The notes beneath the pieces are model-generated. The model was given only the letters and a program-made list of their open reading frames with translations. It did no database searches and had not been told where the DNA came from. From contig CAZAAB010000002.1 of assembly GCA_964483015.1 (NCBI GenBank), positions 1 to 35,646 of the forward strand: a stretch of DNA of 35,646 bases. Direction: 5' to 3'. Shown here piece after piece: positions 675 to 27,906 of the stretch. Position numbers and translations under genes: made by a program. The DNA is from Candidatus Woesearchaeota archaeon. GTDB taxonomy: Archaea; Nanobdellota; Nanobdellia; Pacearchaeales; GW2011-AR1. Each line of letters begins with the position of its first letter. The stretch's first letter is position 1.

Positions 675-827
675 GGACCCGTAGCTCAGTTGGTTAGAGC
701 ACTGGCCTTTTAAGTAGCCTTTTGAAAAGGCTACGGCCAAACCTATAAAACAAAAGGTTTTGATCAAACTTTTTCAAAAAGTTTGGGAGAAAGCCAGGTG
801 TCGGGGGTTCAAGTCCCTCCGGGTCCA
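675..827 (+). tRNA. tRNA-Lys (anticodon UUU) with a 79-nt intron at the canonical 37/38 position
   Basis: Acceptor GGACCCG/CGGGTCC and D arm GCTC-AGTTGGTTA-GAGC. Anticodon stem CTGGC (702-706)/GCCAG (793-797) with loop CTTTTA|A. T arm GGGGG-TTCAAGT-CCCTC, discriminator A, no encoded CCA. Confidence 0.9.
713..791 (+). other. tRNA-Lys intron (about 79 nt) built from three AU-rich hairpins
   Basis: This sequence separates the two halves of the anticodon arm. It contains the hairpins TAGCCTTTT/AAAAGGCTA, AAACC/GGTTT and CAAACTTTTT/AAAAAGTTTG. Exact splice borders are ambiguous by 1 nt because of the A-run. Confidence 0.7.
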
Positions 828-1209: not shown

Positions 1210-4200
1210 ATGTCAGAAAAAGAAAAACAAGATGGTTATATGTTAGTAAAGAACTACTTGAAAGAACATTCTTTAGTTGAAAGTAATATTACTTCTTTTA
1301 ATAACTTTATTGAAGAAAAAATGCAGGAAATTGTTGAAGACCTTAATGAAAACCTGCCTGTAGAAGATTTTGAAATCAGCTTGGGAAAAATAAGGGTGGG
1401 AAAGCCAAATGTTATTGAGGCTGATGGTTCTACATCTTTAGTTACCCCAACAGAAGCAAGGTTAAGAAACCTGACCTATTCTGCGCCTGTTTATTTAGAA
1501 ATTGGAGTAAAAAGAGAGGGGCAGAATGAACAAGAAGAAGTTGAGATAGGGAGAATACCTGTTATGGTGGGAAGCAATATATGCAATAAAGCAAGTTTGA
1601 CAGAAGAAGAAAAACAAGAACATTTTATAGACCCAAAAGACCCTGGCGGATATTTTCTTTTAAATGGAAATGAAAGAGTAATGGTTTTAATGGAAGACCT
1701 TGCTGCAAACCAGCCATTTATTGAAGAAAAAAAAGGCAACTTAATGTTAAGATTATTCAGCCAAAGAGGAGCTTATAGAATCCCTATTTCTATAACTGAA
1801 ACTAAAGAAGGAATAATTGAGACCTCTTTTTCAAGATTTCAAGACATCCCAATAGTTGTCTTGCTAAAAGCTTTAGGTATGGAAAAAGATTCTGACATTG
1901 CAAAGTTTATAGGCAAAGAAACAGACAGTGTTATTGTTAACCTTTATGAATTTTCTGATATCAATTCTATTGAAGATGCTATGTTGTGGATGGCTGAAAA
2001 AGCTAACTTGCAGGGAACTAAAAAAGAAATTCTTGACAGGGTTAAACAAAGGATTGACAATTATTTTATGCCCCATATTGGAACTGAAGAAAAAAACAGG
2101 CAGGAAAAGGCAGTAACATTATGCAAGTTTGTAAAGCAGTTTATAATCGCTAAAGAAAATACTGATGTTTATACTGATAAAGACCATTATGCAAATAAAA
2201 GAGTAAAGCTTTCAGGAGACCTTCTTTCAGACTTATTCAGGGTAAACTTGAATATTCTAGTTAGAGATATTCAATACTCTTTATCTAAAACAATTAAGAG
2301 AAAAAAATATTATTCATTGAAAACAATTGCAAAGTCTACTTTATTTTCACATAGGGTTGAGTCCGCATTTGCAACTGGGAGCTGGATAGGCCAGAGAACA
2401 GGGGTTACTCAAAATATGGATAAGACTAACTACTTATCTATTCTTTCACAGTTACAAAGAGTTACTTCTGTCTTGCCTGGAGAAATTGCTAATTTTATGG
2501 CAAGAACTTTACATCCAACACATTATGGCAGGTTTTGCCCAATTGAAACACCTGAAGGTACTGAGATTGGCTTAAGAAAAAACCTTGCCTTGCTCGCAAG
2601 GGTTTCTACTGATATTCCTCTTAATGAAGAAGCATTTGTAAAAAAATTGCAAGAGCTTGGGATGGAGTTACATTCTTCAGAAAAACAAAAAGAGTTTGAT
2701 GTTTTTTTCAATGGCAGGTTTATAGGCAGTGTTGAAAAAGGCAGCGATTTTATGAAAAAAGTTGTTAACGAAAGAAGACAGAATAAGCTTCCTATTCAGC
2801 TTAACATCAGACTTGACAAGCTTGTAAAAACTATTTACATATCTACAGAAGTTGGCAGAGTTTTAAGACCTCTAATAATTGTTGAAAATGGAAAAAACAG
2901 GATGACTGAGGATTATAAAAACAAGGTAGAAAAGGGGGAGATTGGGTGGAAAGACTTGTTAGAAAAAGGAGTAATAGAGTATTTAGATGCGAGTGAAGAA
3001 GAAAATGCCTTAGTTGCAGTAAAAGAGGAAGACATAACTGAAAAACATACGCATGTTGAAATTGACCCTGTTGCTTCTTTAGGAACTATTACCTCTTTAG
3101 TGCCTTATGCTAATCATGACCACCCGCCAAGATTATTAAGAGGAAGCAAGACATTAAAACAAGGTTTAGGAATATATTCTGGAAATTTTCCTATAAGGGT
3201 TGACACAGATGTTTCAATTCTGCATTATCCTCAAAAGCCAATAGTAAAAAGCTTTGTTTATGACACATTAGACATGCACCCTGCAGGACAGAACATGGTT
3301 GTTGCTATAATGACATACGAGGGTTATAATCTTGAAGATGCAATAGTCATGAATAAGGGAAGTATTGACAGGGGCTTAGCAAGAAGCACTTATTTCAGGC
3401 CTTACTCAGCTATAGAGTTAAAATATGCAGGAAACTTAAAAGACGAGATTACAGTTCCTGAAAAAGATGTTTCAGGCTATAAAACAGAGGAATCTTATAA
3501 ATATTTAGAAGATGACGGTTTAGTTTATCCAGAAGCTAAATTAGATGAAGGTGAGGTAGTTATTGGCAAGACAAGCCCCCCTAAGTTTCTTTCAGAAGCA
3601 AGAAATATAGCTATACGAACAAGAAAAGAGACAAGCGAGGTTATAAGACAGGAAGAAAAAGGGATTGTTGATGCTGTTTTTCTTACTACAGATAGAGAGG
3701 GGAATAAGGTTTCTCATGCAAGGACAAGAGACCCAAGAATTCCGGAGTTAGGAGACAAATTTTCAAATCCTCACGGCCAGAAGGGTGTTGTAGGGTTAAT
3801 AGTCCCTGAACAAGACATTCCTTTTACTTCAAGAGGCATCAAACCAGACTTAATATTTAATCCTCATGGAATCCCAAGCAGAATGAGTATGGGCTACTTA
3901 ATCGAGTTATTAGCCGGGAAAATGGGAAGTATAGCTGGAAGAGCTGTTGACGGGACACCTTTTGCTGGTGAAAAAGTTGAAGATATAGAGAAAAATATGA
4001 GAAAAATGGGGTTTAGATACGATGGTAAAGAAACAATGTTTGACCCTATAACCGGCAAACAGATGAAAGCTAAGATTTTTATTGGCAGTATGTATTACTT
4101 AAAACTTAAGTATATGGTAAGTAATAAAATACATGCAAGGGCTTCTGGAAAAGTTCAACTATTAACAAGACAGCCGATTGAGGGCAGGGCTAAAGGCGGG

Positions 4201-4485
4201 GCATTAAGACTAGGAGAAATGGAGCAACAAGCATTAGTTGCTCACGGCTCTTCATTGTTATTAAAAGAAAGATATGATTCTGATAAGGTTGTTGTTCATG
4301 TTTGTAAGGATTGCGGGAGTTTAGCTATTGAAGATAAGATGAAAAATAAGATTAAATGTCCATTTTGTAAGAACTCAGAATCAGAACCTATAGAAATATC
4401 TTACGCATTTAAGTTATTGCTTGAAGAATTGCAGGGAATGCATATTTATAGTAATTTTGAACTGAAAAATAAATATGAAGAGTAG
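1210..4485 (+). CDS. rpoB: RNA polymerase subunit B, unsplit
   Basis: 1091 aa with conserved Rpo2 blocks (GYFLLNGNERV, NHDHPPR, GDKFSNPHGQKGV, LRLGEMEQQAL) and a C-terminal Zn ribbon CKDCG...CPFC. Confidence 0.97.
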   Translation: MSEKEKQDGYMLVKNYLKEHSLVESNITSFNNFIEEKMQEIVEDLNENLPVEDFEISLGKIRVGKPNVIEADGSTSLVTPTEARLRNLTYSAPVYLEIGVKREGQNEQEEVEIGRIPVMVGSNICNKASLTEEEKQEHFIDPKDPGGYFLLNGNERVMVLMEDLAANQPFIEEKKGNLMLRLFSQRGAYRIPISITETKEGIIETSFSRFQDIPIVVLLKALGMEKDSDIAKFIGKETDSVIVNLYEFSDINSIEDAMLWMAEKANLQGTKKEILDRVKQRIDNYFMPHIGTEEKNRQEKAVTLCKFVKQFIIAKENTDVYTDKDHYANKRVKLSGDLLSDLFRVNLNILVRDIQYSLSKTIKRKKYYSLKTIAKSTLFSHRVESAFATGSWIGQRTGVTQNMDKTNYLSILSQLQRVTSVLPGEIANFMARTLHPTHYGRFCPIETPEGTEIGLRKNLALLARVSTDIPLNEEAFVKKLQELGMELHSSEKQKEFDVFFNGRFIGSVEKGSDFMKKVVNERRQNKLPIQLNIRLDKLVKTIYISTEVGRVLRPLIIVENGKNRMTEDYKNKVEKGEIGWKDLLEKGVIEYLDASEEENALVAVKEEDITEKHTHVEIDPVASLGTITSLVPYANHDHPPRLLRGSKTLKQGLGIYSGNFPIRVDTDVSILHYPQKPIVKSFVYDTLDMHPAGQNMVVAIMTYEGYNLEDAIVMNKGSIDRGLARSTYFRPYSAIELKYAGNLKDEITVPEKDVSGYKTEESYKYLEDDGLVYPEAKLDEGEVVIGKTSPPKFLSEARNIAIRTRKETSEVIRQEEKGIVDAVFLTTDREGNKVSHARTRDPRIPELGDKFSNPHGQKGVVGLIVPEQDIPFTSRGIKPDLIFNPHGIPSRMSMGYLIELLAGKMGSIAGRAVDGTPFAGEKVEDIEKNMRKMGFRYDGKETMFDPITGKQMKAKIFIGSMYYLKLKYMVSNKIHARASGKVQLLTRQPIEGRAKGGALRLGEMEQQALVAHGSSLLLKERYDSDKVVVHVCKDCGSLAIEDKMKNKIKCPFCKNSESEPIEISYAFKLLLEELQGMHIYSNFELKNKYEE

Positions 4486-4510
4486 CCTTTCAAAAAGGCT
4501 ACGGCCAAAC
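4481..4510 (+). repeat. 30-nt hairpin-plus-tail element, 28/30 identical to positions 713-742 of the tRNA-Lys intron
   Basis: AGTAGCCTTTCAAAAAGGCTACGGCCAAAC versus AGTAGCCTTTTGAAAAGGCTACGGCCAAAC. It overlaps the rpoB TAG stop (4483-4485). Confidence 0.85.
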
Positions 4511-4529
4511 ATGGAGAAAGGATAAGAAA

Positions 4530-7500
4530 ATGCAAAAAGGAATAAGAAAACAAGTCAGGGCATTGTCTTTTAGCTTGCTTAGTCCTGACAAGATAAAAGA
4601 TTTGTCAGCAGCAAAAATAGTCACACCCGAATTATACGATGTAGACGGCTATCCAGTAGATGGGGGTTTAATGGACTTAAGAATGGGTGTTATAGAACCT
4701 GGAATGAGGTGCAGGACTTGTGGAGGTACATTAAAGGAGTGTGTTGGCCACCCAGGGTCTATTGAAATGGCAAGACCAGTTATTCATGTCAAGTATGCTA
4801 AATTAATCAAAATGCTTCTTCGTTCTTTTTGTGAAAAGTGTGGAAGATTCTTGCTAGACCAGGGCGAATTAAAAAGATATATGAAAAAATCTCTGAAAAA
4901 GAGAATAAAAAAGGCAAGAGACACAAAAAAATGCCCTTACTGTAATGCTGAGCAGGGTAAAATAAAGTTAGAGAATCCTACAACTTTTAGGATTGGCAAA
5001 AAAAGACTTTTCCCAAATGAGATTAGGGAAAGACTTACATTAATACCAGATGACCAGTTAAGACTTGTAGGGATTAATCCTAAACATACAAGACCTGAGT
5101 GGGCAATCATTTCTCTACTAATAGTTCCACCTGTTACTGTAAGACCTTCAATTACTCTTGAGTCAGGAGAAAGAAGTGAAGATGATTTAACACATAAGTT
5201 AGGAGATATTATAAGGGCAAACCAAAGATTATGGGAAAACTTAAATGCTGGTGCTCCTGAAGTTATTGTTGAAGACTTATGGGACTTGCTTCAATATCAT
5301 GTTACAACCTTTTTTGACAATACTATTTCAAGAATCCCTCCTGCAAGACATAGGTCTGGACAGCCGTTAAAAACAATTACAGAAAGAATAAAAGGCAAGG
5401 AAGGAAGAATCAGGCATAATCTTACTGGTAAAAGAGTTAATTTTTCTTCAAGAAGTGTTATTTCTCCAGATCCTTATCTTAAAATAAATGAGGTTGGTGT
5501 CCCTTTAGAGATTGCAAAAGTTTTAACTGTTGCTGAAAAAGTAACTTCCTTAAATATTGAAAAAATGAAAGAGATTGTAAAAAAGGGAAGTGATTATCCT
5601 GGAGCTAACTATATAGTGAGGCCAGACGGGAAGAGGAAAAAAATAACACCTGAATTAAAAGAGGAAGTTCTTGAAGAGTTGCAGGTTGGGTATTTAGTTG
5701 AAAGACACCTGAAAGATGGAGATATAGTGTTATTTAACAGGCACCCTTCTTTACATAAGCAGAGTATTATGGGGCATATTGTTAAAGTTTTGCCCTCAAA
5801 AACATTTAGATTGCATCCATCTGTCTGTCATCCTTATAATGCTGATTTTGATGGGGATGAGATGAATGTTCATGCTCCCCAGACTGAAGAAGCAAGAAGT
5901 GAGACAAAAACTCTTTTAAATGTAAATGAAAACCTGATTAGCAGTAAAAATAATACTAATTTGCTGGGATGTATTCAAGACCCAATAACTGGCAATTTTT
6001 TGGCAAGTAAAGAAAAAATAAAGGCAAGAGATGCAGAGCAGTTGCTTTTTCAGGCAGGTATTGAAACTGAGATAAAAAAAGACATTGATGGAAGGGAAAT
6101 TTTTTCATCTATTCTTCCTAAAATTGATTTTGAAAATAAAAAAGTTAAGATAGAAAAGGGTAAGGTTGAGAAAGGAGTTATTGATGAAAATACTTTTGGT
6201 GTTGAAGAAGGAGAGTTGTTAAGAAAATTAGATAAAGATTTTGGCAGGGAAAAAAGCCTTGATGTTTTGAAAAAAGCCTTCACACTGGGAACAAATTATA
6301 TTTCTAGAAGAGGTTTTTCTCTTTCCTTAAATGACCTCACAGTAAATGAAAAGACAAAACAGGAAACAGAAAAAATAATTAAAAAAGCTGAAGAAGAAAC
6401 AAGCAAGATAATAGATTCTTATAAAAAAGGCAAGTTAGACTTAATTCCTGGCAGAAGTCTTGAAGAGAGCAGGGAGATAAAGATTCTTCAAACATTAAAC
6501 CATATCAGGACAGAGGTGGGTAAGGTAGTTAGGCAAGAGTTAAAGAGGAATAACCCTGTTAATATTATGATTATTTCTGGTGCAAGGGGCAATGTATTAA
6601 ATATAACTCAAAGCTCTTGTAATGTCGGGCAGCAGGCGTTGTGGGCAAGAAGGATTAATATTGGCTACACAAATAGAACCTTATCTTTTTTTGAGGAAAA
6701 TGACCTGTCTCCAGAGTCAAGAGGATTTATAAGAAACAGTTATTTAGAAGGTTTAGAGCCTCATGAATTTTTCTTTGGTTCAATGACTGGAAGAGACAGT
6801 TTAATGGATACTGCTTTAAGAACACCTAAGTCTGGTTATTTATACAGAAGACTTGCAAATGCTTTACAAGACTTAAAAATTGAGTATGATAAAACATTAA
6901 GAGATGCTTCTCAGAATATTGTCCAGTTTAAGTATGGTGAAGATGGCAAAGATGTTTCTGCTCTTCATAAAGATGGAGAAATACCTGCTGGAGAAGCTGC
7001 AGGAATTGTTTCTGCACAGTCTTTTGGCGAGCCTTCAACACAAATGGCATTAAGAACATTTCACCTTGCTGGTGTGCAAGAAATGCAGATTACACAGGGC
7101 TTGTCAAGACTGATTGAAATATTTGATGCGAGAAAAACCCCTTCAACCCCATTAATGGAGGTTTATCTTGATACAGAACATAACAATCAAAAAGATGCTA
7201 AAGAAGTTGCTGAAAAAATTAAAGAAGTTAAGTTAAAAGAAATAGCTTCTTCTTTTAAGATTAATTTTTCAGATAAAAGAATAGAAATTAATACAGATAG
7301 CAAGGCAGTTAGGTCAACACATACTACATTAAAGAAAATAATTGAAAAATTAAACAGTAAAAAAGGTATAGATGTGAAAAAGAAAGGCAGTTCTATCTAC
7401 AGTAAAGATAAAGATCTTGACTTTAAACAGCTTTACAAGTTAAAAGAAAAGTTAAAAGAATCTATTGTTTCAGGGATTAAGGGTATTGATCAGGTTTTAG

Positions 7501-7997
7501 TTGTTAAAAGAGAGAGGTATTATGTAATACTGACTTCTGGTTCTAACTTGAAGAAAGTTTTAAAAGTTGAGGGGGTAAGCCAGGAAAAAACAGTTACTAA
7601 TGATCTTTATGAAGTTGCTGATGTATTAGGTATTGAAGCAGCAAGACAGTTGATAATTAATGAGGTTAAGAAAGTTTTAAATCAGCAGGGTCTTGATATT
7701 GATCACAGGCATATTGTCCTGGTTGCTGATGCTATGACTTATAAAGGAAATGTTAAAGGAATTACAAGAATGGGTATTATTAGTGAAAAGTCTTCTGTTT
7801 TGGCAAGGTCTGCTTTTGAAACACCAATAAGACAGTTTATTAACGCGAGCATTCGGGGCGGGAAAGATGAGCTTGCTTCTGTTATTGAAAATATAATTCT
7901 AAATCAGCCCGTACCTGTTGGGACCGGCTTGCCGGGCTTGCAAGTTGAAGTGACAGGACCTTTAACTAAGAAAAAAGCTAAGAAAAAAAAGAAATAA
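4530..7997 (+). CDS. rpoA: RNA polymerase subunit A, with A' and A'' regions in a single ORF
   Basis: 1155 aa. N-terminal Zn motifs are present (CRTCGG...C.GH). The catalytic NADFDGDEMN and A'-type block FFFGSMTGRDSLMDTALRT are followed in frame by A''-type blocks (GEAAGIVSAQSFGEPSTQMALRTFHLAG, ARSAFE). Confidence 0.95.
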   Translation: MQKGIRKQVRALSFSLLSPDKIKDLSAAKIVTPELYDVDGYPVDGGLMDLRMGVIEPGMRCRTCGGTLKECVGHPGSIEMARPVIHVKYAKLIKMLLRSFCEKCGRFLLDQGELKRYMKKSLKKRIKKARDTKKCPYCNAEQGKIKLENPTTFRIGKKRLFPNEIRERLTLIPDDQLRLVGINPKHTRPEWAIISLLIVPPVTVRPSITLESGERSEDDLTHKLGDIIRANQRLWENLNAGAPEVIVEDLWDLLQYHVTTFFDNTISRIPPARHRSGQPLKTITERIKGKEGRIRHNLTGKRVNFSSRSVISPDPYLKINEVGVPLEIAKVLTVAEKVTSLNIEKMKEIVKKGSDYPGANYIVRPDGKRKKITPELKEEVLEELQVGYLVERHLKDGDIVLFNRHPSLHKQSIMGHIVKVLPSKTFRLHPSVCHPYNADFDGDEMNVHAPQTEEARSETKTLLNVNENLISSKNNTNLLGCIQDPITGNFLASKEKIKARDAEQLLFQAGIETEIKKDIDGREIFSSILPKIDFENKKVKIEKGKVEKGVIDENTFGVEEGELLRKLDKDFGREKSLDVLKKAFTLGTNYISRRGFSLSLNDLTVNEKTKQETEKIIKKAEEETSKIIDSYKKGKLDLIPGRSLEESREIKILQTLNHIRTEVGKVVRQELKRNNPVNIMIISGARGNVLNITQSSCNVGQQALWARRINIGYTNRTLSFFEENDLSPESRGFIRNSYLEGLEPHEFFFGSMTGRDSLMDTALRTPKSGYLYRRLANALQDLKIEYDKTLRDASQNIVQFKYGEDGKDVSALHKDGEIPAGEAAGIVSAQSFGEPSTQMALRTFHLAGVQEMQITQGLSRLIEIFDARKTPSTPLMEVYLDTEHNNQKDAKEVAEKIKEVKLKEIASSFKINFSDKRIEINTDSKAVRSTHTTLKKIIEKLNSKKGIDVKKKGSSIYSKDKDLDFKQLYKLKEKLKESIVSGIKGIDQVLVVKRERYYVILTSGSNLKKVLKVEGVSQEKTVTNDLYEVADVLGIEAARQLIINEVKKVLNQQGLDIDHRHIVLVADAMTYKGNVKGITRMGIISEKSSVLARSAFETPIRQFINASIRGGKDELASVIENIILNQPVPVGTGLPGLQVEVTGPLTKKKAKKKKK

Positions 7998-10886: not shown

Positions 10887-13800
10887 ATGGCAGATAAGAC
10901 AACAGAAAAAGTAAAAAAATTGCAACATAAGCCAGAACAAATAAGGAATATAGCAATTGCTGCACATATAGATCACGGGAAGTGTATAGCACCTGAATCT
11001 CGGATTATGTTAGATGGAAATTTAGTTAAAGCTAAGGATTTATTTGAAACTGCTAAGAAAAAAGGCGAAAAAGTTTTTGAAGAGGATAACAAAATAATTT
11101 ATGATACTTCAAAACTTGATATTAAAACTTTTTCTTTAAATAAAAAAAATAAAAAATTAGAAAAAAGAAAAATAAGTCATGCATGGAAACTAAAGGGGGG
11201 CAATGTAATTAAATTAAAATTAAGAAATGGATTCCAAATTAAAACAACCCCGGAACACAAATACATTGTTTTTGAAAATTTTGATTTTAAAGAAAAGCAA
11301 GCTAAAAACTTAAAAATAGGTGACAGAGTTATATGCCCCAGAGAAATTGAAATTGATAAACAAATAAATATCAAAAGTTATATCTTGAAGAAATTGCAAA
11401 AGGAAAACTTCTATGTATTTTTAAATGAGGTTTTTGGAAATAAGTTAAAAAATTTAATTTTGGACTATGGGATAAGAAAAATAAACAAACAACTTGACTC
11501 TGACATAAAGTATAATTCTATATATCATGGTTTCTGGAAGAATAGATATCAAATTAAAGACCTAATTAAAATATCCCATATTTTTAATTTTAAATTAGAA
11601 AATATTTATAACGAGATTGACTTTATCTGTTATAGAACCGGAAAATGGAGAGATAAAAGCTCTCTACAAGTAAAGTTGCCAAAAACTCCTCGGCAATTTG
11701 AAAAGTTTTTTTATCTCTCTGGATTAATGTTTGGAGATGGTTCTGGGAAAAAATTTGTTGTAGGAAAAAAAGAACTTGGCAATATTTTTGAAAAAATTTG
11801 TGATGAATTTAATATAAGAGTCACTCACAGAGATTATGGTTACAGAACTAAAGAACTTATGACCAGTGAAACTTTATCAAGAATTTTAAAATGTGTTCTT
11901 GAATATCCTCTAAAAGATAAAAGTAGAAACATTAAAATCAGCAGTGTTTTATGGAAAATTGATAAGAGATATGTCAGCCAATTTATAAAAGGATATTTTG
12001 ATACTGATGGATGTGTAGAAAAATCTAGGAGAGCTATATCTTTAAGTTCTGCCAGTAAGAAAATGTTAAAAGGATTATCTTTACTTTTATTAAGAATAGG
12101 AATAGTCCCTAATTTACAAAAAAATAATATTTTTATATCTGGTCACTCCGCTAAAAGATTTCAGCAAGAAATTGGTTTTAATGTAAAAGATAAAACTGAG
12201 AAATTAGAGGATTTAGTCAAAAGAATTAGAGCTAGTTTAGTTATGGATTATGTTTTAGTTAATGGGAAAAGGGTCTCTAAAACAAGTGGGGGATTAAGTT
12301 TGCAACAAGAAAAACAGGTTTTACTTAGCAATTTACTTGAACAATTTGCATTTGTTGAAGTAAAAAAATTAGAGCAAGATGTAGAAGAGGAAGTTTATGA
12401 TTTTTCTGTTCCTAAGACAAGGAATTTTGTTTCTGAAGGCATTATTATTCACAACACCACATTTTCTGACAACTTACTGGCTGGAGCTGGAATGATGTCT
12501 GAAGAATTGGCAGGAAAACAATTAGTTATGGATTTTCATGATGATGAAAAAGAGAGAGGCATTACAATAGACTCTGCTAACGTGAGTATGGTTCATGATT
12601 TTGAAGGTAAAGATTATTTAATTAACTTAATAGATACCCCGGGGCATGTTGATTTTGGTGGTGATGTGACAAGAGCAATGAGAGCAGTTGATGGCAGTAT
12701 AGTTTTAGTATGTGCTTCAGAAGGTGTCATGCCTCAAACTGAAACAGTATTAAGGCAGGCATTAAGAGAAAGGGTAAAACCTATATTATTTATCAATAAG
12801 GTTGATAGGTTGATTAGGGAAGTTAAGCTGACTCCAGAACAGATGCAGAAAAGATTTAAGAAAATCATAAATCAGGTTAATGAACTTATACATAATATTG
12901 CTCCTAAAGAGTATAAAGATAAATGGCTTGTAAATGTTCAAGATGGTTCAGTAGCATTTGGTTCTGCTTTTCACAACTGGGCATTGTCTATACCATTTAT
13001 GAAAAAAAATAAAATAACTTTTAGTGATATTATTGAAGCATATAAGGCGGGGGGTGAAAAATATAAAGAGCTGGCAAAAAAAGCACCCTTGCATAGGGTT
13101 GTTCTAAATATGGTTACAAAGCACTTGCCAGACCCAAAACAAGCCCAACCATACAGGATTCCAAAAATCTGGCACGGGGATTTAGATTCAAAGCAGGGAA
13201 AATCCTTAACTGGATGTGATGAAAATGGGAAACCAGGTTTTATTTCAACTAAAATTGTTGTTGATAAGCATGCTGGCGAAGTAGCTGCAGGCAGGTTATT
13301 TTCAGGAACATTAAAACAGGGAGATGAAGTTTATATGAATCTTGCTAAAAGAAAAGTTAAACTGCAGCAAGTTTTCGTCTATAATGGGGCTAAGAAAATA
13401 CAGGTTGACAGTGTTGTTGCAGGCAATATTGTGGGTTTATCTGGATTGACTGATGTTCGGGCCGGGGAAACTGTTTCAGAAGAAAAAGTGACTCCTTTTG
13501 AAGAAATTAAACATATTTTTGAACCAGTAGTTACTAAAAGTATTGAAGCTAAAAAACCCTCTGACCTTCCTAATTTAATTGATATTTTAAGAACTGTAAA
13601 TAAAGAAGACCCTTCAATTCATATTGAGATAAATGAAGATACAGGAGAAAATTTAATATCAGGAATGGGAGAATTGCATTTAGAGGTTATTGAAAACAGG
13701 ATTAGAAGCGAGAAAGGTTTAGATGTTAAAACAGGACAGCCAATTGTTGTTTATAATGAAACTGTTACAAAAGAATCAAGAGAGTTTGACGGGAGAAGCC

Positions 13801-14528
13801 CGAACAAGCACAATATTTTTACAATAAAGGTTGAACCATTAGAAGAAAATATTTATAATGCTATTAAAGAGGGGGAGATATCAGAGGGGAGGATAAAGAA
13901 AAAAGACAAGCAGTTAAGCGAAAAATTAAGAGAAATAGATGTTGATAGAGATGAAGTCAGACAGTATCGTGATATTTATAAAGGAAATGTTTTCTTAGAC
14001 ACAACAAGAGGAGAGGTTTATATGGAAGAAGTTATTGAGTTAATTCTTGATGCTTTTGAACAAGTTGTTGATCAAGGGCCATTAGCAAGAGAGCCTTGTT
14101 CAAGATTAAAGGTAAGTTTAACTGATGTTAAGTTGCATGAAGATGCTATTCACAGGGGGCCTGCACAAGTATATCCTGCTGTGAGAAATGCTATACATGC
14201 AGCAATGAACGATGCCAAAGCTGTATTGTTTGAGCCTGTACAAATTCATAGAGTTGAAGCACCTTTAAAATATCTTTCAAATCTTACTAATCTAATTTCA
14301 AGCAAAAGAGGCGAATTGTTAGAGGTTAATCAGGAACAAACTGCAGTTATTAAAGCTAAAATACCTGTAGCAGAGATGATTGGCTGGTCAAGTGACTTAA
14401 GGTCAGCTACTGAAGGGAGAGGGGTTTCATCATTGATGGACCAGAAATTTGAAAAAGCACCTGCAGACCAACAGCAAGAGATTATTAAAAAGATTAGAGA
14501 CAGAAAAGGTTTAGAAGAAAATCAGTAG
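10887..14528 (+). CDS. fusA: Translation elongation factor 2 (aEF-2) precursor containing an intein
   Basis: The extein reads AHIDHGK|TTFSDNLLAGAG, DTPGHVDF, NKVDR, and EDAIHRGPAQ (diphthamide His region). It is 722 aa once the intein is removed. Confidence 0.95.
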   Translation: MADKTTEKVKKLQHKPEQIRNIAIAAHIDHGKCIAPESRIMLDGNLVKAKDLFETAKKKGEKVFEEDNKIIYDTSKLDIKTFSLNKKNKKLEKRKISHAWKLKGGNVIKLKLRNGFQIKTTPEHKYIVFENFDFKEKQAKNLKIGDRVICPREIEIDKQINIKSYILKKLQKENFYVFLNEVFGNKLKNLILDYGIRKINKQLDSDIKYNSIYHGFWKNRYQIKDLIKISHIFNFKLENIYNEIDFICYRTGKWRDKSSLQVKLPKTPRQFEKFFYLSGLMFGDGSGKKFVVGKKELGNIFEKICDEFNIRVTHRDYGYRTKELMTSETLSRILKCVLEYPLKDKSRNIKISSVLWKIDKRYVSQFIKGYFDTDGCVEKSRRAISLSSASKKMLKGLSLLLLRIGIVPNLQKNNIFISGHSAKRFQQEIGFNVKDKTEKLEDLVKRIRASLVMDYVLVNGKRVSKTSGGLSLQQEKQVLLSNLLEQFAFVEVKKLEQDVEEEVYDFSVPKTRNFVSEGIIIHNTTFSDNLLAGAGMMSEELAGKQLVMDFHDDEKERGITIDSANVSMVHDFEGKDYLINLIDTPGHVDFGGDVTRAMRAVDGSIVLVCASEGVMPQTETVLRQALRERVKPILFINKVDRLIREVKLTPEQMQKRFKKIINQVNELIHNIAPKEYKDKWLVNVQDGSVAFGSAFHNWALSIPFMKKNKITFSDIIEAYKAGGEKYKELAKKAPLHRVVLNMVTKHLPDPKQAQPYRIPKIWHGDLDSKQGKSLTGCDENGKPGFISTKIVVDKHAGEVAAGRLFSGTLKQGDEVYMNLAKRKVKLQQVFVYNGAKKIQVDSVVAGNIVGLSGLTDVRAGETVSEEKVTPFEEIKHIFEPVVTKSIEAKKPSDLPNLIDILRTVNKEDPSIHIEINEDTGENLISGMGELHLEVIENRIRSEKGLDVKTGQPIVVYNETVTKESREFDGRSPNKHNIFTIKVEPLEENIYNAIKEGEISEGRIKKKDKQLSEKLREIDVDRDEVRQYRDIYKGNVFLDTTRGEVYMEEVIELILDAFEQVVDQGPLAREPCSRLKVSLTDVKLHEDAIHRGPAQVYPAVRNAIHAAMNDAKAVLFEPVQIHRVEAPLKYLSNLTNLISSKRGELLEVNQEQTAVIKAKIPVAEMIGWSSDLRSATEGRGVSSLMDQKFEKAPADQQQEIIKKIRDRKGLEENQ
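10983..12455 (+). mobile_element. 491-aa intein with a LAGLIDADG homing-endonuclease domain in the EF-2 P-loop
   Basis: It starts with Cys (CIAPES) straight after GK and ends in HN followed by Thr. It has a TxxH block (TTPEH) and two LAGLIDADG motifs (LSGLMFGDGSG, IKGYFDTDGCV). By eye it is more AT-rich than the extein. Confidence 0.9.
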
Positions 14529-16951: not shown

Positions 16952-17025
16952 CTTTTTATCAATTTTTTACTTGCTCTTGCCTGTTCTTTTTCACTTATAT
17001 ATCTTTTCTTTATACAGTATATACT

Positions 17026-17060
17026 TAATCTTTTTTGAAAAGATTGAGAGCAAAACCTGG
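17026..17060 (+). repeat. 35-nt hairpin-plus-tail repeat, copy 1 (TAATCTTTTTTGAAAAGATTGAGAGCAAAACCTGG)
   Basis: 33/35 identical to the reverse complement of 20813-20847. A partial third tail (GATTAGGAGTAAAACC) lies at 17098-17113. Confidence 0.85.
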
Positions 17061-17323
17061 AAAAAAGTTTAATCAAAACATAACGAATTTGAAAAAAGAT
17101 TAGGAGTAAAACCAAATAATCAAAAACCTAAAAATAATTATTAAAGTTGAAAAAAGAAAAGTTTTAAAAAGCTGGTAATTTTTTAAATATTGGTATCAAG
17201 AAGGTAATTATTTTATCGTTAGGATAAGATTATCAGTTAAATCATATTCACCACTTAAAAAAAGCGTAAAAGTAGTTTTTTCTTGGTATCTAATTAAATA
17301 TTATATGGAGGTAAAATTTGAAA

Positions 17324-20131: not shown

Positions 20132-20181
20132 AAAAACCTTGTTTGTTACCCCTCCTTTAGGATGGGGTTTGTTAGGTTTTT
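20132..20181 (-). terminator. Long imperfect hairpin followed by TTTTT, downstream of the AbrB-like gene
   Basis: Outer stem AAAAACCT/AGGTTTTT, inner stem CCCC.CC/GG..GGGG. On the minus strand it is followed by a T-run. Confidence 0.3.
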
Positions 20182-20258
20182 AAGACTGTTCGAAAATGAT
20201 TCATCTGCATCCTGAGGGGGGCAGTTTTCGCACCTTGTATTTTCAGCATAAAAAACAT

Positions 20259-20663: not shown

Positions 20664-20812
20664 TTTTTCTTTAACTCTTTAGTTTTTTGATTATAGAACT
20701 TTTTCCAAAAGTTCCATGTCTAATATTTCTTTAGGTTTGGCTGCAGCCTTTTAACTTGATATGTTTATGCTTAATTTTTTTAGATCAACAGATTTTGATT
20801 TCTAAAAATTTT

Positions 20813-20847
20813 CCAAGTTTTGCTCTTAATCTTTTCAAAAAAGATTA
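20813..20847 (-). repeat. 35-nt hairpin-plus-tail repeat, copy 2 (inverted relative to 17026-17060)
   Basis: The reverse complement is TAATCTTTTTTGAAAAGATTAAGAGCAAAACTTGG. Weaker similarity continues about 25 nt further (TGGAAAA...AATCAAAA). Confidence 0.85.
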
Positions 20848-20848
20848 C

Positions 20849-20867
20849 GTTATAACTATGTTATAAC
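20849..20867. promoter_or_regulatory. Tandem palindromic octamers GTTATAAC-TAT-GTTATAAC in a divergent promoter region
   Basis: Two identical self-complementary 8-mers, 11 bp centre to centre, between the AbrB-like gene (-) and the surface-protein gene (+). Confidence 0.35.
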
Positions 20868-22253: not shown

Positions 22254-25200
22254 TCAAACCTCTAATGTTACTATTTTGCTAACACCTTTTTGCATTGATA
22301 CCCCGTATAATACTGATGATTCTGTAATAAGGGCATCATTATGAGTAATGATTATGTACTGGCCTGTTTTCATATGCTTTTTAATTAATGCTGCAAGTCT
22401 TTCGCTATTCCTTTTATCTAAAGCAGCATCAACTTCATCAAATATGTAAAAGCAGTAAGGCTTATATTCCTGAATTGCAAATAATAAAGAAAGGGCTACA
22501 AGTGTTTTTTCTCCCCCTGATAAAGAAGATATGTCAAAATACTTGCCCCTGCCTATCTTAATCTCAATATCAAGACCAGCTTCAAAAATTTCGTTTTTAT
22601 TTTCAGGCCTTAAAAAAGCTTCTCCCTTTTTTGACAGCTGTCTAAAGTTTCTGTTAAAAAGCTCGTTTACTGCTTTTAGGGTTTTCATAAAGACTTTTTT
22701 CTTTTTTTTGTCAATCTTTTCAATAACTTTCAATATCTCTTCTTTTTCTTTCATCAGCTTTTCAGCTTTTTCTTCAACTTTATCATACTCTTTTTTTACC
22801 CTGCTATAAACTTCCAAAGACTTAAGGTTTACTGCCCCCATCTTCTCAATTCTATTCTGTGTTTTTTCTAACTTACTTTCTAATGTGTGCACTGGCTGGT
22901 TTATTACCTTAACATTTTCATACGGCTTAAAGTCTGTTTCAAGGTTTTCTAACTCTGCGTCAATTCTTGCTTTTTCTATTTTTAAATCATTTTCTTTTTC
23001 TTCTATCCTGCTAATATTGTTTTGTATTTCTAATATAAATGAATTTTTTTCATGTATTTGTTTTTGCAAAGAATTTTTTTCTTCATTTAGATTTTTAAAA
23101 ATTTCTTCAAGTTCAGACTGTTTTTCTTCTTTTTCTTCCAACTGTTCTCTTTTTTCCTGCTCTTCATCTTCCAACTCTTCAAGTTCTTCTTCTAAATCTT
23201 CTTGCTCCCTAAAACTCTGCTTTTGCTCTATTTTTAATTTTTCTAAATCTCTTTCTTTTGACTCTTGCTCTGCATTAACTGTTTCCTTTGTTCTTGAAGA
23301 AATTTCCTGAATTTCTAAAAAAATCTTGTCATAATCTTCTTCAATGTTTTTTAGTTTTGAAAGCTTATTTTTTATCTCTTTCTGCTTTTTACTTAAATCT
23401 TGTATCTGTTTTTCTATTTCTTTTTTCTCATTTTCTATCTTTTTTATGGCTTCTTTTTTTTCTTCAACCCATTTTAAGTTTACTAAGTCTTTTTCTGCTT
23501 TTTCTCTTTCCTGCTGTATTTTTTTCATTTTCTCTTTTAAGTTTGAAATTTCTTCTTTAGTTTTTTCAGAATCTAATTTTTCTAACTTTTCTTTATAGTT
23601 TGAAATTTTTTCATCACAATCGGTTTTAACTTGTTCTATATGCTTGGAGGTTATCCTGCTTTTACATAGGGGGCATATATCTAAATTTTCTACTTTTTCC
23701 TTCACTTCTTGTAATCTCGCTATTTCTGATTTATAGATAGAAGAATTGTTTTCTTGCCCTCTTATTAATTCTTGTTTATTTTCTACTGTATTTCTTGTCT
23801 CTTTTTCTTTTTTTTCCAGTTCTTTGACCTGTTTTTCTGCTTTTTCAATTTCTTTATACTTAAGCTTATCAGAAAGATTATCAACCTGGTTAAATAAGAA
23901 CGAGGATTCGTTTTGTTTCTCATTTAATAAATTCTCCCTATCTTGTTTTTTATCTTTAATACTCTTTAATTTTTCTTTTAAATTATAAGATTTCTTTTTC
24001 TTAGCTTCTGCCTGCTCTAACTGCTTTTTCTTTTCATTTAATTCTTCTTGCTTGCCTGTCTGCGGTTTTTCTTTTCTTAATCTTTTGATCTCTTTTTCTA
24101 ATTTTTCTTCCTCTTTTTTTCTTTTTTCCCTCCTTTCCTTAATTTCTTCTAATCTTGACTGGTTGTTTTCTTCCCTTACTTCTATTCCTACTAGGTCTGC
24201 CCTTAAATTAGAAATTTGAGATTGTAGATTTTCTTGTCTTACCCCTGTCTTTCCTTCTATATCTTTATCAATTTTGTTAATTCTTTTTTCAAACTGCTTT
24301 ATCTCTTGCCTTGCTTTTTTTTCCTGATTTCTTTTTTCCTGCTTTTTATCTTCTTTTTCTTCTAACTCCTGGATAAAATTGGAAAGGTTCTTTTTTTTCC
24401 TGCTTATCTTTCTCTTTAATATGCTTGCCTTATACCTTTTTACTCTTTTCTTGAATTTTTTAAATTTTAAAGCCTGCCTTCTTTCTTTTTCCAGATTTTT
24501 TAAATAACTTCTTCTTTCTCTTAATGTTGCTGAAACCTGCTTAAATTTTTCATCTGTTTTTTCTAACTCGTTTAAACTTTTCTTTTTTCTGTCTTCATAA
24601 ATGCTTATCCCGGCAACCTCTTCTATAATCTCTCTTCTTTCTTCTGGCTTCATTTTCACTATCTCCTGGATTTCTCCCTGTAAAACTATATTAAAGCCGT
24701 AAGGGTCTATGCCTGCCTGAGCAAGCAGGTCTATTATTTCCTGTCTTGTTTTTGTTTCTTTATTTATTTTATATGTGCTTTGCCCATTTTTTCTGACAAT
24801 TCTTTGTATAGAAACCTCTTTACTGTCTACTGAAAAAGTTTTATCTTTATTGCTGAAAACTAAATTTACACTTGCCTCTTTTTCTGGCTTTCTCCCTTTT
24901 GCCCCTGCAAAAATTAGATTTGAAGCTCTTTCTGCCCTCATACTCTTAATTGACATTCTACCTAAGACAAAACATAAAGCATCTACTATGTTACTGTTAT
25001 GAACAAAAATATTATTTGCTATAAAGTTATGGTGCAATTCCACACATAAATCATATACCCATTTTTCTCCCGGGATTTCTTCTATTTTAATTATCTCATC
25101 CCAAAAGATGTCTGAATTTGCTAATGTGTTGAGTTTTTCTTTTGATTCTGAATGTCCATTAAAAACTTTTTCGCATAATAATTTCAAGCCATCTCTTGAA

Positions 25201-26705: not shown

Positions 26706-26860
26706 AACTCTTTTTTACTTGATTTTTTCTTATTTTACTAACTGAAAAGCCTTATTTAAAGTTTATTTTGATTAAAATAAATTAAACAATGAAATTTTGA
26801 AAACAAAAAGCTTATAAAGTTTAAAATCTTTAGTTGTAATAATTGGTAAAGTTATCTTTG

Positions 26861-26921
26861 CCAGGGGGCAGGAGAAACAATCTTGGGTCCTTCGGGATTT
26901 TTGGTTGTCTTCGGATGCCCC
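26861..26921. ncRNA. GC-rich structured island, a candidate small RNA of unknown class
   Basis: GGGGCA (26865-26870) pairs with TGCCCC (26916-21), enclosing a GTCC-TTCG-GGAT hairpin and a second TTCG loop. It stands out in an AT-rich 383-bp spacer. Strand and class are undetermined. Confidence 0.25.
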
Positions 26922-27088
26922 TAAATTGCTATTTCTTATACAGCCACAAAAATTTTTAAGTTAAATAAATTGTTTTAATTATGGCAGGGGGAAGTTTCAT
27001 CAAAAAGTTGGGATATTAAAGAAATATCAGAATTAAACTATTTGCTAACAGTCAAATTAATAAGTGAAGAATCTGGATTCTTCATTTT

Positions 27089-27799: not shown

Positions 27800-27906
27800 T
27801 AGCGGGGGTGGGAATTTCATTGGCAAGATTTTCTCTTGGCCAATTTTGAACACCACGACCTCCGGGTTATGGGCCCGGCGAACACTCCAAGCTGTTCTAC
27901 CCCGCT
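27800..27906 (-). tRNA. Initiator-type tRNA-Met (CAU) with a ~31-32 nt insertion in the T arm
   Basis: On the minus strand: acceptor AGCGGGG/CCCCGCT (A1:U72), anticodon stem CCGGG/CCCGG with three G:C pairs next to the loop, and loop CCCATAA. The T-arm halves GTGG..GTTCAAA and TCCCAC are separated by the hairpin ATTGGCCAAG/CTTGCCAAT. Confidence 0.8.

What the first reader, a model, noticed from the sequence alone, without database searches (positions are those of the whole stretch)
4481..4520. The rpoB-rpoA spacer looks like a collapsed copy of the tRNA-Lys intron
Positions 4481-4510 are 28/30 identical to 713-742, the first 30 nt of the tRNA-Lys intron (hairpin TAGCCTTT../..AAAGGCTA plus tail CGGCCAAAC). 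Two nt later, GGAGAAAG (4513-4520) matches 786-793, which spans the intron 3' end and exon junction. The 44-nt spacer therefore equals the intron ends with the central 43 nt removed. The hairpin incorporates the rpoB TAG stop. One possibility is a mobile intron-like element, since tRNA intron mobility has been proposed in some archaea. Another is a shared site for an RNA-binding or processing factor such as the splicing endonuclease, which would cleave the rpoB-rpoA transcript. A third is a shared structural module. A related tail (AAGGCTGCAGCCAAACCTA, minus strand, 20731-20750) matches the intron at 727-745 in 17/19 positions.
Basis: seen in the sequence. Interest (0 to 1): 0.65.

Follow-up and report, generated by a model that had tools for sequence, protein, structure and literature searches.

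The report
tRNA-intron hairpin module copied after rpoB
The short spacer between the two large RNA-polymerase genes of this tiny archaeon is a stray copy of a hairpin cassette that normally opens its tRNA introns, and an unrelated cassette shows the same pairing of sites in other Pacearchaeota, so these small archaeal introns appear to move.

Summary
Window 4481-4510 matches 713-742 at 28/30, GGAGAAAG recurs, and a third partial copy lies at 20732-20752(-); shuffles expect none. The window comes from a Pacearchaeota/Woesearchaeota (DPANN) archaeon. The nearest relatives (up to 79% RpoB identity) join rpoB and rpoA as TAAAATG and carry unrelated tRNA-Lys introns. Both copies are therefore lineage-specific insertions.

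In the one metagenome run that holds this genome, the same 30-mer also opens a tRNA-Tyr intron (30/30). It also sits in a fourth, non-tRNA locus whose unit matches the whole spacer. The spacer is thus a sibling copy of a roughly 45-nt hairpin-plus-tail cassette, not a collapsed tRNA-Lys intron.

A sequence-unrelated cassette (AGCGAAGGACACC..GGTTTCCTA..CTACCTTCC) has the same distribution in other Pacearchaeota. It sits at the 5' splice site of introns in at least seven tRNA types, inside a bulge-helix-bulge (BHB)-bounded insert in an rRNA spacer, and directly after the rpoB stop codon in at least five assemblies.

Every tRNA copy has a clean BHB. No rpoB-rpoA copy has one, so splicing there is unsupported.

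Best reading: portable BHB-intron cassettes spread at the DNA level, and the rpoB-rpoA junction is a recurrent dead-end landing site. The mobilising mechanism and any function are unknown.

The parts
675..712 (+). tRNA-Lys(UUU) exon 1. The anticodon stem 5' strand is 702-706. CUUU at 707-710 is the 5' strand of the central BHB helix. UA|A at 711-713 is the 5' bulge.
   Evidence: Rfam tRNA 57.7 bits; ARAGORN -i; BHB finder
713..791 (+). 79-nt canonical (37/38) BHB intron of tRNA-Lys. It consists of hairpin P1, a tail, a linker and hairpin P3 (765-785), then GGAG (786-789, 3' strand of the central helix) and the AAA bulge.
   Evidence: The part from 750 onward is confirmed by an independent contig of run X1. 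The P3 region 757-789 has a further copy elsewhere in that metagenome.
713..745 (+). Family-1 cassette, intron copy. Hairpin P1 is 714-734 (GUAGCCUUU/AAAGGCUAC, loop UGA), followed by the single-stranded tail GGCCAAACCUA.
   Evidence: -11.8 kcal/mol, z -3.4
792..827 (+). tRNA-Lys exon 2
1210..4485 (+). rpoB (unsplit, 1091 aa). Its TAG stop at 4483-4485 is supplied by the cassette.
   Evidence: Pfam Rpb2 domains 1-7
4481..4526 (+). Family-1 cassette, rpoB-rpoA spacer copy. The hairpin is 4482-4502 (loop CAA) and the tail CGGCCAAAC ends at 4510. GGAGAAAGG at 4513-4521 looks like a Shine-Dalgarno site and lies 13 nt before the rpoA ATG. It is followed by GGATAAG. There is no BHB partner sequence.
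   Evidence: -13.1 kcal/mol, z -3.1. The whole unit aligns to the copy on the 359-nt contig.
4530..7997 (+). rpoA (fused A'+A'', 1155 aa)
   Evidence: Pfam Rpb1 domains 1-5
20727..20752 (-). Partial family-1 copy: the 3' arm of the hairpin plus the tail (AAAAGGCTGCAGCCAAACCTAAAG), in a 312-nt intergenic region.
   Evidence: 19/21, 0 expected; nhmmer E = 3e-6, though this copy was one of the four sequences the model was built from

Best explanation
SHOWN. The 44-nt rpoB-rpoA spacer is a secondary insertion into an ancestrally coupled TAAAATG stop/start junction. What was inserted is one copy of a lineage-specific cassette of about 45 nt: an 8-9 bp hairpin followed by the conserved tail CGGCCAAAC(CUA). 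Other copies open the introns of tRNA-Lys and tRNA-Tyr, starting 1-2 nt after the 5' splice site, and occur in at least two non-tRNA loci. In tRNAs the hairpin acts as the inner helix next to the 5' bulge of a bulge-helix-bulge (BHB) motif, and the far end of the intron supplies the other strand. The spacer copy has no such partner.

INFERRED. The cassette is the portable 5' part of BHB introns and is copied between sites at the DNA level. Candidate mechanisms are transposition or illegitimate recombination, followed by spread and homogenisation through recombination between very conserved flanks. It survives only where extra RNA is harmless: in tRNA introns and rRNA spacers, where a BHB removes it, or between two cistrons. 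The rpoB-rpoA copy is then a dead-end, unspliced insertion. It donates the TAG stop, places a stable hairpin at the 3' end of the rpoB cistron, and brought or evolved a GGAG ribosome-binding site that replaces the lost translational coupling. It may also protect the rpoB segment of the mRNA from 3' exonucleases, as bacterial REP hairpins do.

A sequence-unrelated cassette has the same distribution in other Pacearchaeota, so the rpoB-rpoA junction is a recurrent landing site. The enzyme or process that moves the cassettes is unknown.
For: - **Insertion.** Most of the 80 GTDB relatives join the genes directly, typically as TAAAATG. The nearest protein relative in 5.8 billion sequences (79% RpoB identity) has TAAAATG and an unrelated 31-nt tRNA-Lys intron. 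No relative locus carries the 30-mer.
- **More copies.** In run X1 the exact 30-mer follows AGCTCAGTGGCTAGAGCGTCTGGCTGTAGA, which is a tRNA-Tyr D arm and anticodon loop. A 359-nt contig carries a copy between other tail-like units, and that copy aligns to the spacer through GAGAAA..GGATA. The depths are all about 4.6-5.8. A partial copy lies at 20732-20752. The second intron hairpin also has a copy elsewhere.
- **Independent replication.** Family 2 (AGCRMAGGACACCnnnnGGTTTCCTA..CTACCTTCC) fills the rpoB-rpoA spacer in L115, L121, L149, L162, L177 and L199. It also opens introns of tRNA-Arg, Ser, Asp, Gly, Val, Leu and Lys(CUU) (ARAGORN). One MAG has both a spacer copy (L174) and a tRNA-Arg intron copy (L172).
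- **BHB.** It is present in all tRNA copies and in a 93-95 nt insert in an rRNA spacer. It is absent from all rpoB-rpoA copies.
- **DNA-level footprints and turnover.** L167 has a 27-nt duplicate of the rpoB 3' end flanking its insert. L130 has a tandem duplication, and its spacer element differs from that of L121 although their RpoB is 93% identical. L176 has a 15-nt duplicate of a tRNA 5' end.
- **No alternative annotation.** Neither cassette matches any Rfam family.
Against: - No mobilising gene or mechanism was found. The 35-kb window encodes no transposase, integrase or reverse transcriptase.
- There is no clean target-site duplication at the window's spacer.
- Family-2 stems and tail are almost invariant across lineages whose RpoB is only 68% identical. 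In rpoB-rpoA spacers the cassette is 82-95% identical where four-fold degenerate sites of rpoB are 51-64% identical. That fits selection for a function at least as well as it fits mobility plus gene conversion.
- No protein-coding intergenic site other than rpoB-rpoA was hit in unbiased pattern scans. Random insertion does not explain this site specificity.
- The copy number of family 1 looks low: about 5 copies detected.
- The source genome is not available, so there is no genome-wide census.
- No RNA data exist.
Confidence: 0.55

Rival explanations
1. The cassette is a functional RNA module. The hairpin plus invariant tail would be a binding or entry site for a conserved factor, such as a nuclease that clears excised (circular) introns and spacers, or an RNA chaperone. 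Alternatively it could be a trans-acting small RNA released from highly expressed transcripts (tRNA introns, rRNA spacer, RNA-polymerase operon). Selection would then keep it at the rpoB-rpoA junction.
For: The family-2 stem and tail are invariant while the loop varies freely (TAAC, TAAT, TCGC, TTGC, AAAT, TTAT) across at least 7 tRNA types and across lineages with 68% RpoB identity. The cassette evolves far more slowly than synonymous sites of the adjacent rpoB. The only mRNA context found is rpoB-rpoA. Free tRNA introns act as mRNA regulators in yeast (bioRxiv 10.1101/2025.11.19.689297).
Against: The cassette is dispensable and quickly replaced. Most relatives have no spacer, and L130 (93% RpoB identity to L121) carries a different element. 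Two unrelated sequences, families 1 and 2, would have to serve the same role. The same tRNA has or lacks introns, with unrelated sequences, in sister lineages. No target or partner was identified.
Confidence: 0.25
2. The cassette is a generic REP-like palindromic repeat. It would be one of several families of short extragenic hairpins scattered through this AT-rich genome, perhaps mobilised on single-stranded DNA by a Y1 HUH (RAYT or IS200-type) enzyme. The tRNA introns would simply be among the permissive non-coding sites.
For: The hairpin starts with GTAG and ends with CTAC, a 'double-foot' form, and the loop CAA fits the common CMA loop. GTAG repeats often donate a TAG stop to the upstream ORF (PMC3733652, PMC6006769). 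The 359-nt contig shows clustered units. Other hairpin repeat families exist in the window and in the metagenome.
Against: REP/RAYT systems are described only in Bacteria. Copy number is low. Two of about five copies sit at the 5' splice site of tRNA introns, far more than random extragenic insertion predicts. Family 2 is almost confined to BHB-processed RNA plus rpoB-rpoA. No HUH gene lies in the window. In classical REPs the GTAG is unpaired, whereas here it is part of the stem.
Confidence: 0.12
3. The spacer copy is a substrate of the tRNA-splicing endonuclease, so the rpoB-rpoA transcript is cut or spliced there.
For: The cassette is identical to the sequence that abuts the 5' splice site in two pre-tRNAs. 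Some archaeal endonucleases accept relaxed motifs (PMC3239211, PMC5829648). A BHB-bounded insert with the family-2 cassette exists in an rRNA spacer.
Against: No 4-bp central helix, second bulge or outer helix can be drawn around the spacer cassette. The positions equivalent to CUUU read AUGA. The same negative result holds for five family-2 rpoB-rpoA copies, while 14 tRNA copies score cleanly in the same search.
Confidence: 0.05
4. The match is a coincidence or a one-off local event, such as gene conversion or template switching from the tRNA-Lys intron 3.7 kb upstream, with no wider meaning.
For: The two window copies lie on the same strand 3.77 kb apart. Palindromes promote template switching.
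Against: Chance expectation is 0. The closest donor is the tRNA-Tyr copy, not the tRNA-Lys copy. Further copies exist. The same pairing of sites recurs with an unrelated sequence in other genomes.
Confidence: 0.03

Closest known systems
tRNA intron transposition in Thermoproteales (Fujishima et al. 2010, Mol Biol Evol 27:2233, as summarised in PMC4090602)
   Same: Highly similar short BHB introns sit in evolutionarily distinct tRNA genes of one genome, which implies late intron gain by copying. A BHB is required at each functional new site.
   Different: This case is in DPANN (Pacearchaeota), not Crenarchaeota. Only the 5' cassette is shared, and the 3' part is tailored to each anticodon loop. 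Copies also occur outside tRNAs: after the rpoB stop codon without a BHB, in an rRNA spacer with a BHB, and in an intergenic region. One cassette is conserved across many species.
Bacterial REP/REPIN elements (GTAG-tagged extragenic palindromes mobilised by RAYT; PMC3733652, PMC6006769)
   Same: A 20-40 nt hairpin with a GTAG foot, here with CTAC as a double foot, and a short CAA loop. It lies just downstream of an ORF and donates the TAG stop. Units can be single or clustered. A likely side-effect is a stabilising mRNA hairpin.
   Different: The host is an archaeon and copy number is low. GTAG is base-paired. There is a strong association with tRNA-intron 5' splice sites. No RAYT gene is known in this lineage or present in the window.
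BHB motifs outside tRNA: rRNA processing stems and the Cbf5 pre-mRNA intron of Crenarchaeota (my own knowledge; rRNA case also in bioRxiv 10.64898/2026.03.23.713588)
   Same: The family-2 cassette lies inside a BHB-bounded 93-95 nt insert in a 16S-tRNA-Ala-23S spacer. Non-tRNA transcripts can therefore carry the same cassette in a spliceable form.
   Different: The rpoB-rpoA copies lack the BHB and lie between two cistrons, not inside a coding sequence.
Free tRNA introns acting as regulators (fitRNAs, yeast; bioRxiv 10.1101/2025.11.19.689297)
   Same: This is a precedent for excised tRNA introns having sequence-dependent functions.
   Different: It is a eukaryotic system. No target complementarity was found or could be tested here.

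Membership tests
Archaeal BHB intron (substrate of the tRNA-splicing endonuclease) | Two 3-nt bulges separated by a 4-bp helix and flanked by helices | tested here: met
   tRNA-Lys intron: CUGGC / CUUU / UAA ... GGAG / AAA / GCCAG. The same holds for 14 family-2 tRNA introns.
Archaeal BHB intron (substrate of the tRNA-splicing endonuclease) | The same motif around the rpoB-rpoA spacer copy | tested here: not met
   No central helix or outer helix brackets 4481-4526. The upstream bases read AUGA where CUUU would be needed. Five family-2 rpoB-rpoA copies are also negative.
Archaeal BHB intron (substrate of the tRNA-splicing endonuclease) | Excision and ligation seen in RNA | not testable with these tools
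   No RNA run holds the window.
Transposed tRNA-intron group (Thermoproteales type) | More than 70% similar intron sequence in distinct tRNA genes of one genome | tested here: met
   Lys and Tyr intron starts are 28/30 identical; the Tyr copy is known only from the contig end. Family 2 occurs in Arg, Ser, Asp, Gly, Val, Leu and Lys(CUU) introns.
Transposed tRNA-intron group (Thermoproteales type) | Copies confined to tRNA genes | tested here: not met
   Copies lie after the rpoB stop, in an intergenic region, on a non-tRNA contig and in an rRNA spacer.
REP/REPIN | 5' GT[AG]G at the foot of a 20-40 nt extragenic hairpin | tested here: met
   GTAGCCTTT..AAAGGCTAC. However, the GTAG is paired.
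REP/REPIN | Tens to hundreds of copies per genome | tested here: inconclusive
   Three copies in 35.6 kb and two more in a roughly 64%-complete, 5x metagenome assembly. The genome itself is not available.
REP/REPIN | Cognate RAYT/TnpA-Y1 gene flanked by the repeats | not testable with these tools
   None among the window's ORFs. The rest of the genome is not in any collection.
MITE | Terminal inverted repeats plus a target-site duplication | tested here: not met
   The element is a single hairpin with an asymmetric tail, and no duplication flanks 4481-4526.
Intron-encoded box C/D sRNA | C (RUGAUGA) and D (CUGA) boxes | tested here: not met
   Absent from the 79-nt intron and from the spacer. 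No Rfam hit.
Intrinsic or oligo-T terminator | A T run after the hairpin | tested here: not met
   The hairpin is followed by CGGCCAAACATGG.

The most novel reading that the evidence does not exclude
Short BHB introns of DPANN archaea are true mobile cassettes. An excised or excisable intron unit, defined from its first nucleotide, is re-inserted into DNA at tRNA anticodon loops, in rRNA spacers and, repeatedly, at the rpoB-rpoA junction. Alternatively, the conserved hairpin-plus-tail is a tag read by an undiscovered factor that links the tRNA, rRNA and RNA-polymerase transcripts. Either way, the rpoB-rpoA copies are the first natural 'orphan' archaeal intron cassettes outside stable RNA genes.
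Probability: 0.3. Interest if true: 0.85.

Novelty: new variant of a known kind. Interest (0 to 1): 0.66.

Why it matters
How the small protein-spliced introns of archaeal tRNAs arise and spread is an old open question. The only solid evidence so far is sequence similarity between introns of different tRNAs in Thermoproteales.

This finding adds three things:

- **Cassettes shared widely.** Two unrelated cassettes in a different archaeal lineage are shared among many tRNA types, and one of them also among species.
- **Copies outside tRNA genes.** Some are in a spliceable form (rRNA spacer) and some in an unspliceable form (rpoB-rpoA junction).
- **Direction and boundaries.** The unspliceable orphans show which way copying went and where the unit begins, namely at the 5' splice site.

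Together these give concrete material for testing mobility, endonuclease specificity and possible intron-derived RNA function. They also show that the normally coupled rpoB-rpoA junction of Pacearchaeota is a hotspot for insertions, both cassettes and small ORFs. This matters for annotation and for understanding RNA-polymerase operon expression in these reduced genomes.

Tried and rejected
- **Finding the source genome.** A 17-mer scan of GTDB representatives gave only chance bacterial hits. Exact RpoB and RpoA look-ups found nothing. The 26-mer was absent from JGI metagenomes and IMG/VR. A genome-wide census was therefore impossible.
- **Relating the finding's repeat to the second hairpin repeat pair** (17023-17064 and 20809-20850). 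A visual alignment gives about 64% identity with compensatory stem changes. Cross-searches with nhmmer profiles were not significant (E = 16 and above). I treat the two as separate families. A scan for the second repeat in GTDB and IMG/VR gave only chance hits.
- **BHB in the spacer.** A relaxed finder returns many weak AU-rich hits, but none brackets the cassette. An alternative pairing of CCUUUC (4487-4492) with GAAAGG (4515-4520) would require melting the 9-bp hairpin, so I rejected it.
- **Minus-1 frameshift fusing RpoB to RpoA.** The rpoA frame is open from 4479, but there is no slippery site. Rejected.
- **Mimicry of, or complementarity to, the 16S rRNA 3' end.** This was suggestive by eye for family 2. 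The real 16S 3' end on L185 matches only 6/7 nt. Dropped.
- **C/D or H/ACA guide RNA, terminator, promoter, CRISPR-like mini-array.** The defining motifs or regular spacing are absent.
- **Further candidate families.** These pair the L118 intron with the L167 spacer, and the L138 intron with the L116/L145 spacers. The matches are short enough to be chance, so they remain leads only.
- **Spacer inserts of relatives against their own 9-kb loci.** No internal repeats were found apart from the rpoB-end duplication in L167.
- **Small ORFs inserted at the junction in relatives.** None has a Pfam domain except one tRNA_bind hit.
- **RNA evidence.** No RNA-seq run holds the window.
Full report
**1. 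The observation**

- Window 4481-4510 and 713-742 are 28/30 identical, and the two differences lie in the hairpin loop.
- The 28-nt pattern occurs exactly twice in the window, with none in 100 shuffles.
- GGAGAAAG follows 2 nt later in the spacer and 43 nt later in the intron. The 8-mer occurs 5 times in 71 kb.
- The third copy at 20732-20752(-) is 19/21 to the intron, with 0 expected by chance.
- Region 675-827 is tRNA-Lys(UUU) with a 79-nt canonical intron.
- The flanking ORFs are an unsplit RpoB and a fused RpoA, followed by NusA-KH, S12, S7 and EF-2.
- Contigs of an independent public run (X1, microbial mat) reproduce both junctions of the spacer copy and the 3' part of the intron.

**2. 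Where it comes from**

RpoB places the window in the Pacearchaeota/Woesearchaeota (DPANN). The best GTDB representative is 77% identical. The best hit in 5.8 billion proteins is 79% identical. The source genome is in none of the searchable collections.

**3. The spacer is an insertion**

Most of the 80 relatives join rpoB and rpoA directly, typically as TAAAATG. The 79% relative does the same, and its tRNA-Lys intron is an unrelated 31-mer. None of the 84 relatives' loci contains the 30-mer. About one third of relatives carry a tRNA-Lys intron at the same site, but the sequences are unrelated. They share only an architecture of hairpins plus a GRAG-NAA 3' end that pairs with the anticodon loop. 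Both window copies therefore arose within this lineage.

**4. More copies in the same community genome**

Laying X1 contigs on the spacer gave four results.

- The unitigs break exactly at the 30-mer, which is k-1 for k = 31.
- A 607-nt contig ends ...AGCTCAGTGGCTAGAGCGTCTGGCTGTAGA followed by the identical 30-mer. This is a tRNA-Tyr(GUA) whose intron opens with the cassette.
- A 359-nt contig carries a copy (31 nt, 1 mismatch to the Lys version). It is flanked by AAAAGATTACGAGCAAAACCCAGAATTTAC on one side and GAGAAAAGAAGGATAGGGCCAAACCTGGGC on the other, so it is not in a tRNA.
- The 359-nt contig copy continues to align with the spacer through GAGAAA and GGATA. The whole 44-nt spacer is therefore one repeat unit.

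Depths are about 4.6-5.8 throughout, which is consistent with a single genome. The second hairpin of the Lys intron (757-789) also has a copy elsewhere, next to another tRNA gene on the opposite strand. The Lys intron is thus a mosaic of dispersed hairpin repeats.

**5. Structure**

In pre-tRNA-Lys a canonical BHB can be drawn:

- outer helix 702-706 / 793-797
- central helix CUUU / GGAG
- bulges UAA and AAA

Hairpin P1 starts at the second intron nucleotide, so it supplies the helix next to the 5' bulge. The tail is unpaired. The spacer copy folds into the same hairpin (-13.1 kcal/mol, z = -3.1). Nothing upstream can pair with GGAG, and no BHB brackets the cassette. GGAG lies 13 nt before the rpoA ATG. 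Some internal genes of this window have GGAG or GAGG at similar positions, so it can act as a ribosome-binding site.

**6. Independent replication in other genomes**

Five relatives (L115, L121, L149, L162 and later L177), plus L199, have a different conserved element in the same spacer: AGCRMAGGACACCnnnnGGTTTCCTA..CTACCTTCC. It forms a hairpin followed by an unpaired tail.

Pattern scans of GTDB representatives (7 hits) and JGI metagenomes (24 hits) found it only in Pacearchaeota/Woesearchaeota or unnamed contigs. The contexts were classified with ARAGORN, Rfam and a BHB finder. Locus ids joined by "=" are duplicate recoveries of one sequence.

| Context | Instances |
|---|---|
| 5' start of canonical tRNA introns, plus one truncated tRNA | Arg(UCG) x4, Ser(GCU), Asp(GUC) x3, Gly(GCC), Val(UAC), Leu(UAA) x2, Lys(CUU) |
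| After the first 15 nt of a tRNA | L176, L187 |
| BHB-bounded 93-95 nt insert, with 7-bp outer helix, in a 16S-tRNA-Ala-23S spacer | L185, L197 |
| Directly after the rpoB stop codon | L173=L196, L174=L190, L177, L121=L193, L199 |

No other protein-coding context was hit. One MAG (Meg19_1012_Bin_412) has both a spacer copy (L174) and a tRNA-Arg intron copy (L172). All tRNA copies have a clean BHB, with the cassette starting 0-3 nt after the 5' bulge. None of the rpoB-rpoA copies has one.

**7. Evolutionary signals**

- The rpoB-rpoA carriers of family 2 fall into two clades whose RpoB is only about 68% identical to each other.
- Within clades, four-fold degenerate sites of rpoB are 51-64% identical (82% for one close pair). 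The cassette is 82-95% identical, and most of the differences are in the loop.
- Turnover is nevertheless fast. L130, with 93% RpoB identity to L121, carries a different, tandemly duplicated hairpin element. L145 and L167, in the same clade, carry others.
- L167's insert is flanked by a 27-nt direct repeat of the rpoB 3' end.
- L176's cassette is flanked by a 15-nt repeat of the tRNA 5' end.
- About 20 of the 80 relatives instead have unrelated small ORFs starting at the TAAAATG junction.

The junction is therefore an insertion hotspot.

**8. Interpretation**

The shared sequence is a portable cassette that forms the 5' part of BHB introns. The window's spacer is an orphan copy, closest to the tRNA-Tyr copy, inserted into a formerly coupled junction. 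I favour DNA-level copying for four reasons:

- flank duplications around some inserts
- fast replacement of the spacer content between close relatives
- patchy presence among relatives
- survival only in RNA that is either removed or harmless

In the spacer the cassette cannot be excised. Its likely consequences are the following, all of which are inferences:

- it donates the TAG stop
- it places a stable hairpin at the end of the rpoB cistron
- it replaces translational coupling with initiation at a GGAG site

The strong conservation of family 2 and the specificity for rpoB-rpoA are not explained by random insertion. They keep a functional-module reading alive (25%). A generic REP-like reading fits some of the anatomy: the GTAG...CTAC foot, the CAA loop, donation of the TAG stop, and clustered units (PMC3733652, PMC6006769). 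It does not fit the distribution. Splicing-endonuclease cleavage of the mRNA fails the geometry test.

**9. Comparison with known systems**

The closest precedent is intron transposition among tRNA genes of Thermoproteales (Fujishima et al. 2010, via PMC4090602). This case differs in four ways:

- it is in a different archaeal lineage
- only a 5' cassette is shared
- one cassette is conserved across species
- copies exist outside tRNA genes

Neither cassette matches an Rfam family. Full-text searches found no description of either.

**10. Limits**

- There is no complete genome, no RNA data and no identified mobilising activity.
- The tRNA-Tyr copy is known only from a 30-nt contig flank.
- Independent insertion events at rpoB-rpoA number perhaps three or four, not the raw count of loci.

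Noticed in passing
window 17023-17064 (+) and 20809-20850 (-): A second hairpin-plus-tail repeat (ACKTAATCTTTTTTGAAAAGATTRAGAGCAAAACYTGGAAAA) is present as a 93% inverted pair flanking 3.7 kb. That segment holds a Toprim/DnaG-like gene, an AP-endonuclease-2 gene and three small ORFs. Each copy lies about 25 nt downstream of a TATA-like box. Each is followed inward, 40-65 nt away, by a tail-only unit. The pair looks like terminal inverted repeats or small RNA genes. It is not significantly related to the finding's repeat.
   Followed up: partly
window 17081-17120 (+): This partial copy of the second repeat shares an exact 30-mer with another locus of the same metagenome. That locus is a 167-nt contig which then diverges into CCTGAATAAAAAAAGG....
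   Followed up: partly
window about 27800-27906 (-): A tRNA-Met(CAU) gene is interrupted by a non-canonical intron of about 30 nt in the T-loop (AATTGGCCAAGAGAAAATCTTGCCAATGAA). ARAGORN and Rfam both miss it. ARAGORN recognises the tRNA once about 30 nt are deleted in silico. This implies a splicing endonuclease with broad specificity.
   Followed up: partly
window 10887-14528 (+) and 22254-26705 (-): EF-2 and an SMC-like ATPase each carry an intein with a LAGLIDADG homing-endonuclease domain.
   Followed up: no
window 29080-29469 and 29484-29921 (+): A pyrimidine 5'-nucleotidase (UMPH-1) homologue is split into two adjacent ORFs covering profile positions 2-83 and 102-245. This could be a frameshift, a stop, or a real split.
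   Followed up: no
window 1210-7997: rpoB is unsplit (1091 aa). rpoA' and rpoA'' are fused into one 1155-aa ORF, as in the relatives.
   Followed up: no
L094, L101, L103, L111, L117, L118, L120, L122, L125, L136, L143, L147, L152-L155, L158, L159, L165 (rpoB-rpoA junction): About 20 of the 80 relatives have an unrelated small ORF (42-112 aa, several Cys-rich) that starts at the TAAAATG junction between rpoB and rpoA. Of the ten checked against Pfam, only one has a domain (tRNA_bind in L103). The junction is an insertion hotspot.
   Followed up: partly
L185 1-1248 and L197: The rRNA operon spacer holds a tRNA-Ala, a 99-aa ORF with no Pfam match, and then a BHB-bounded 93-95 nt insert. The insert contains one intact and one degenerate family-2 cassette and lies about 170 nt upstream of the 23S rRNA.
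   Followed up: partly
L167 3851-4004; L130 spacer; L176 about 100-200: Three footprints of DNA-level insertion. L167 has a 27-nt direct repeat of the rpoB 3' end flanking its hairpin element. L130 has a tandem duplication of a 57-nt hairpin unit. L176 has a 15-nt duplicate of the tRNA-Ser 5' end upstream of the cassette.
   Followed up: partly
L093 vs L095 tRNA-Lys introns: The first intron hairpin has the same stem in both, but the loop is reverse-complemented (TTC vs GAA). This is the signature of a hairpin inversion between two species.
   Followed up: no
window about 20140-20250 and 26860-26935: These are G+C-rich, apparently structured islands within AT-rich intergenic DNA. Neither has an Rfam match. 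They may be unannotated RNA genes.
   Followed up: partly
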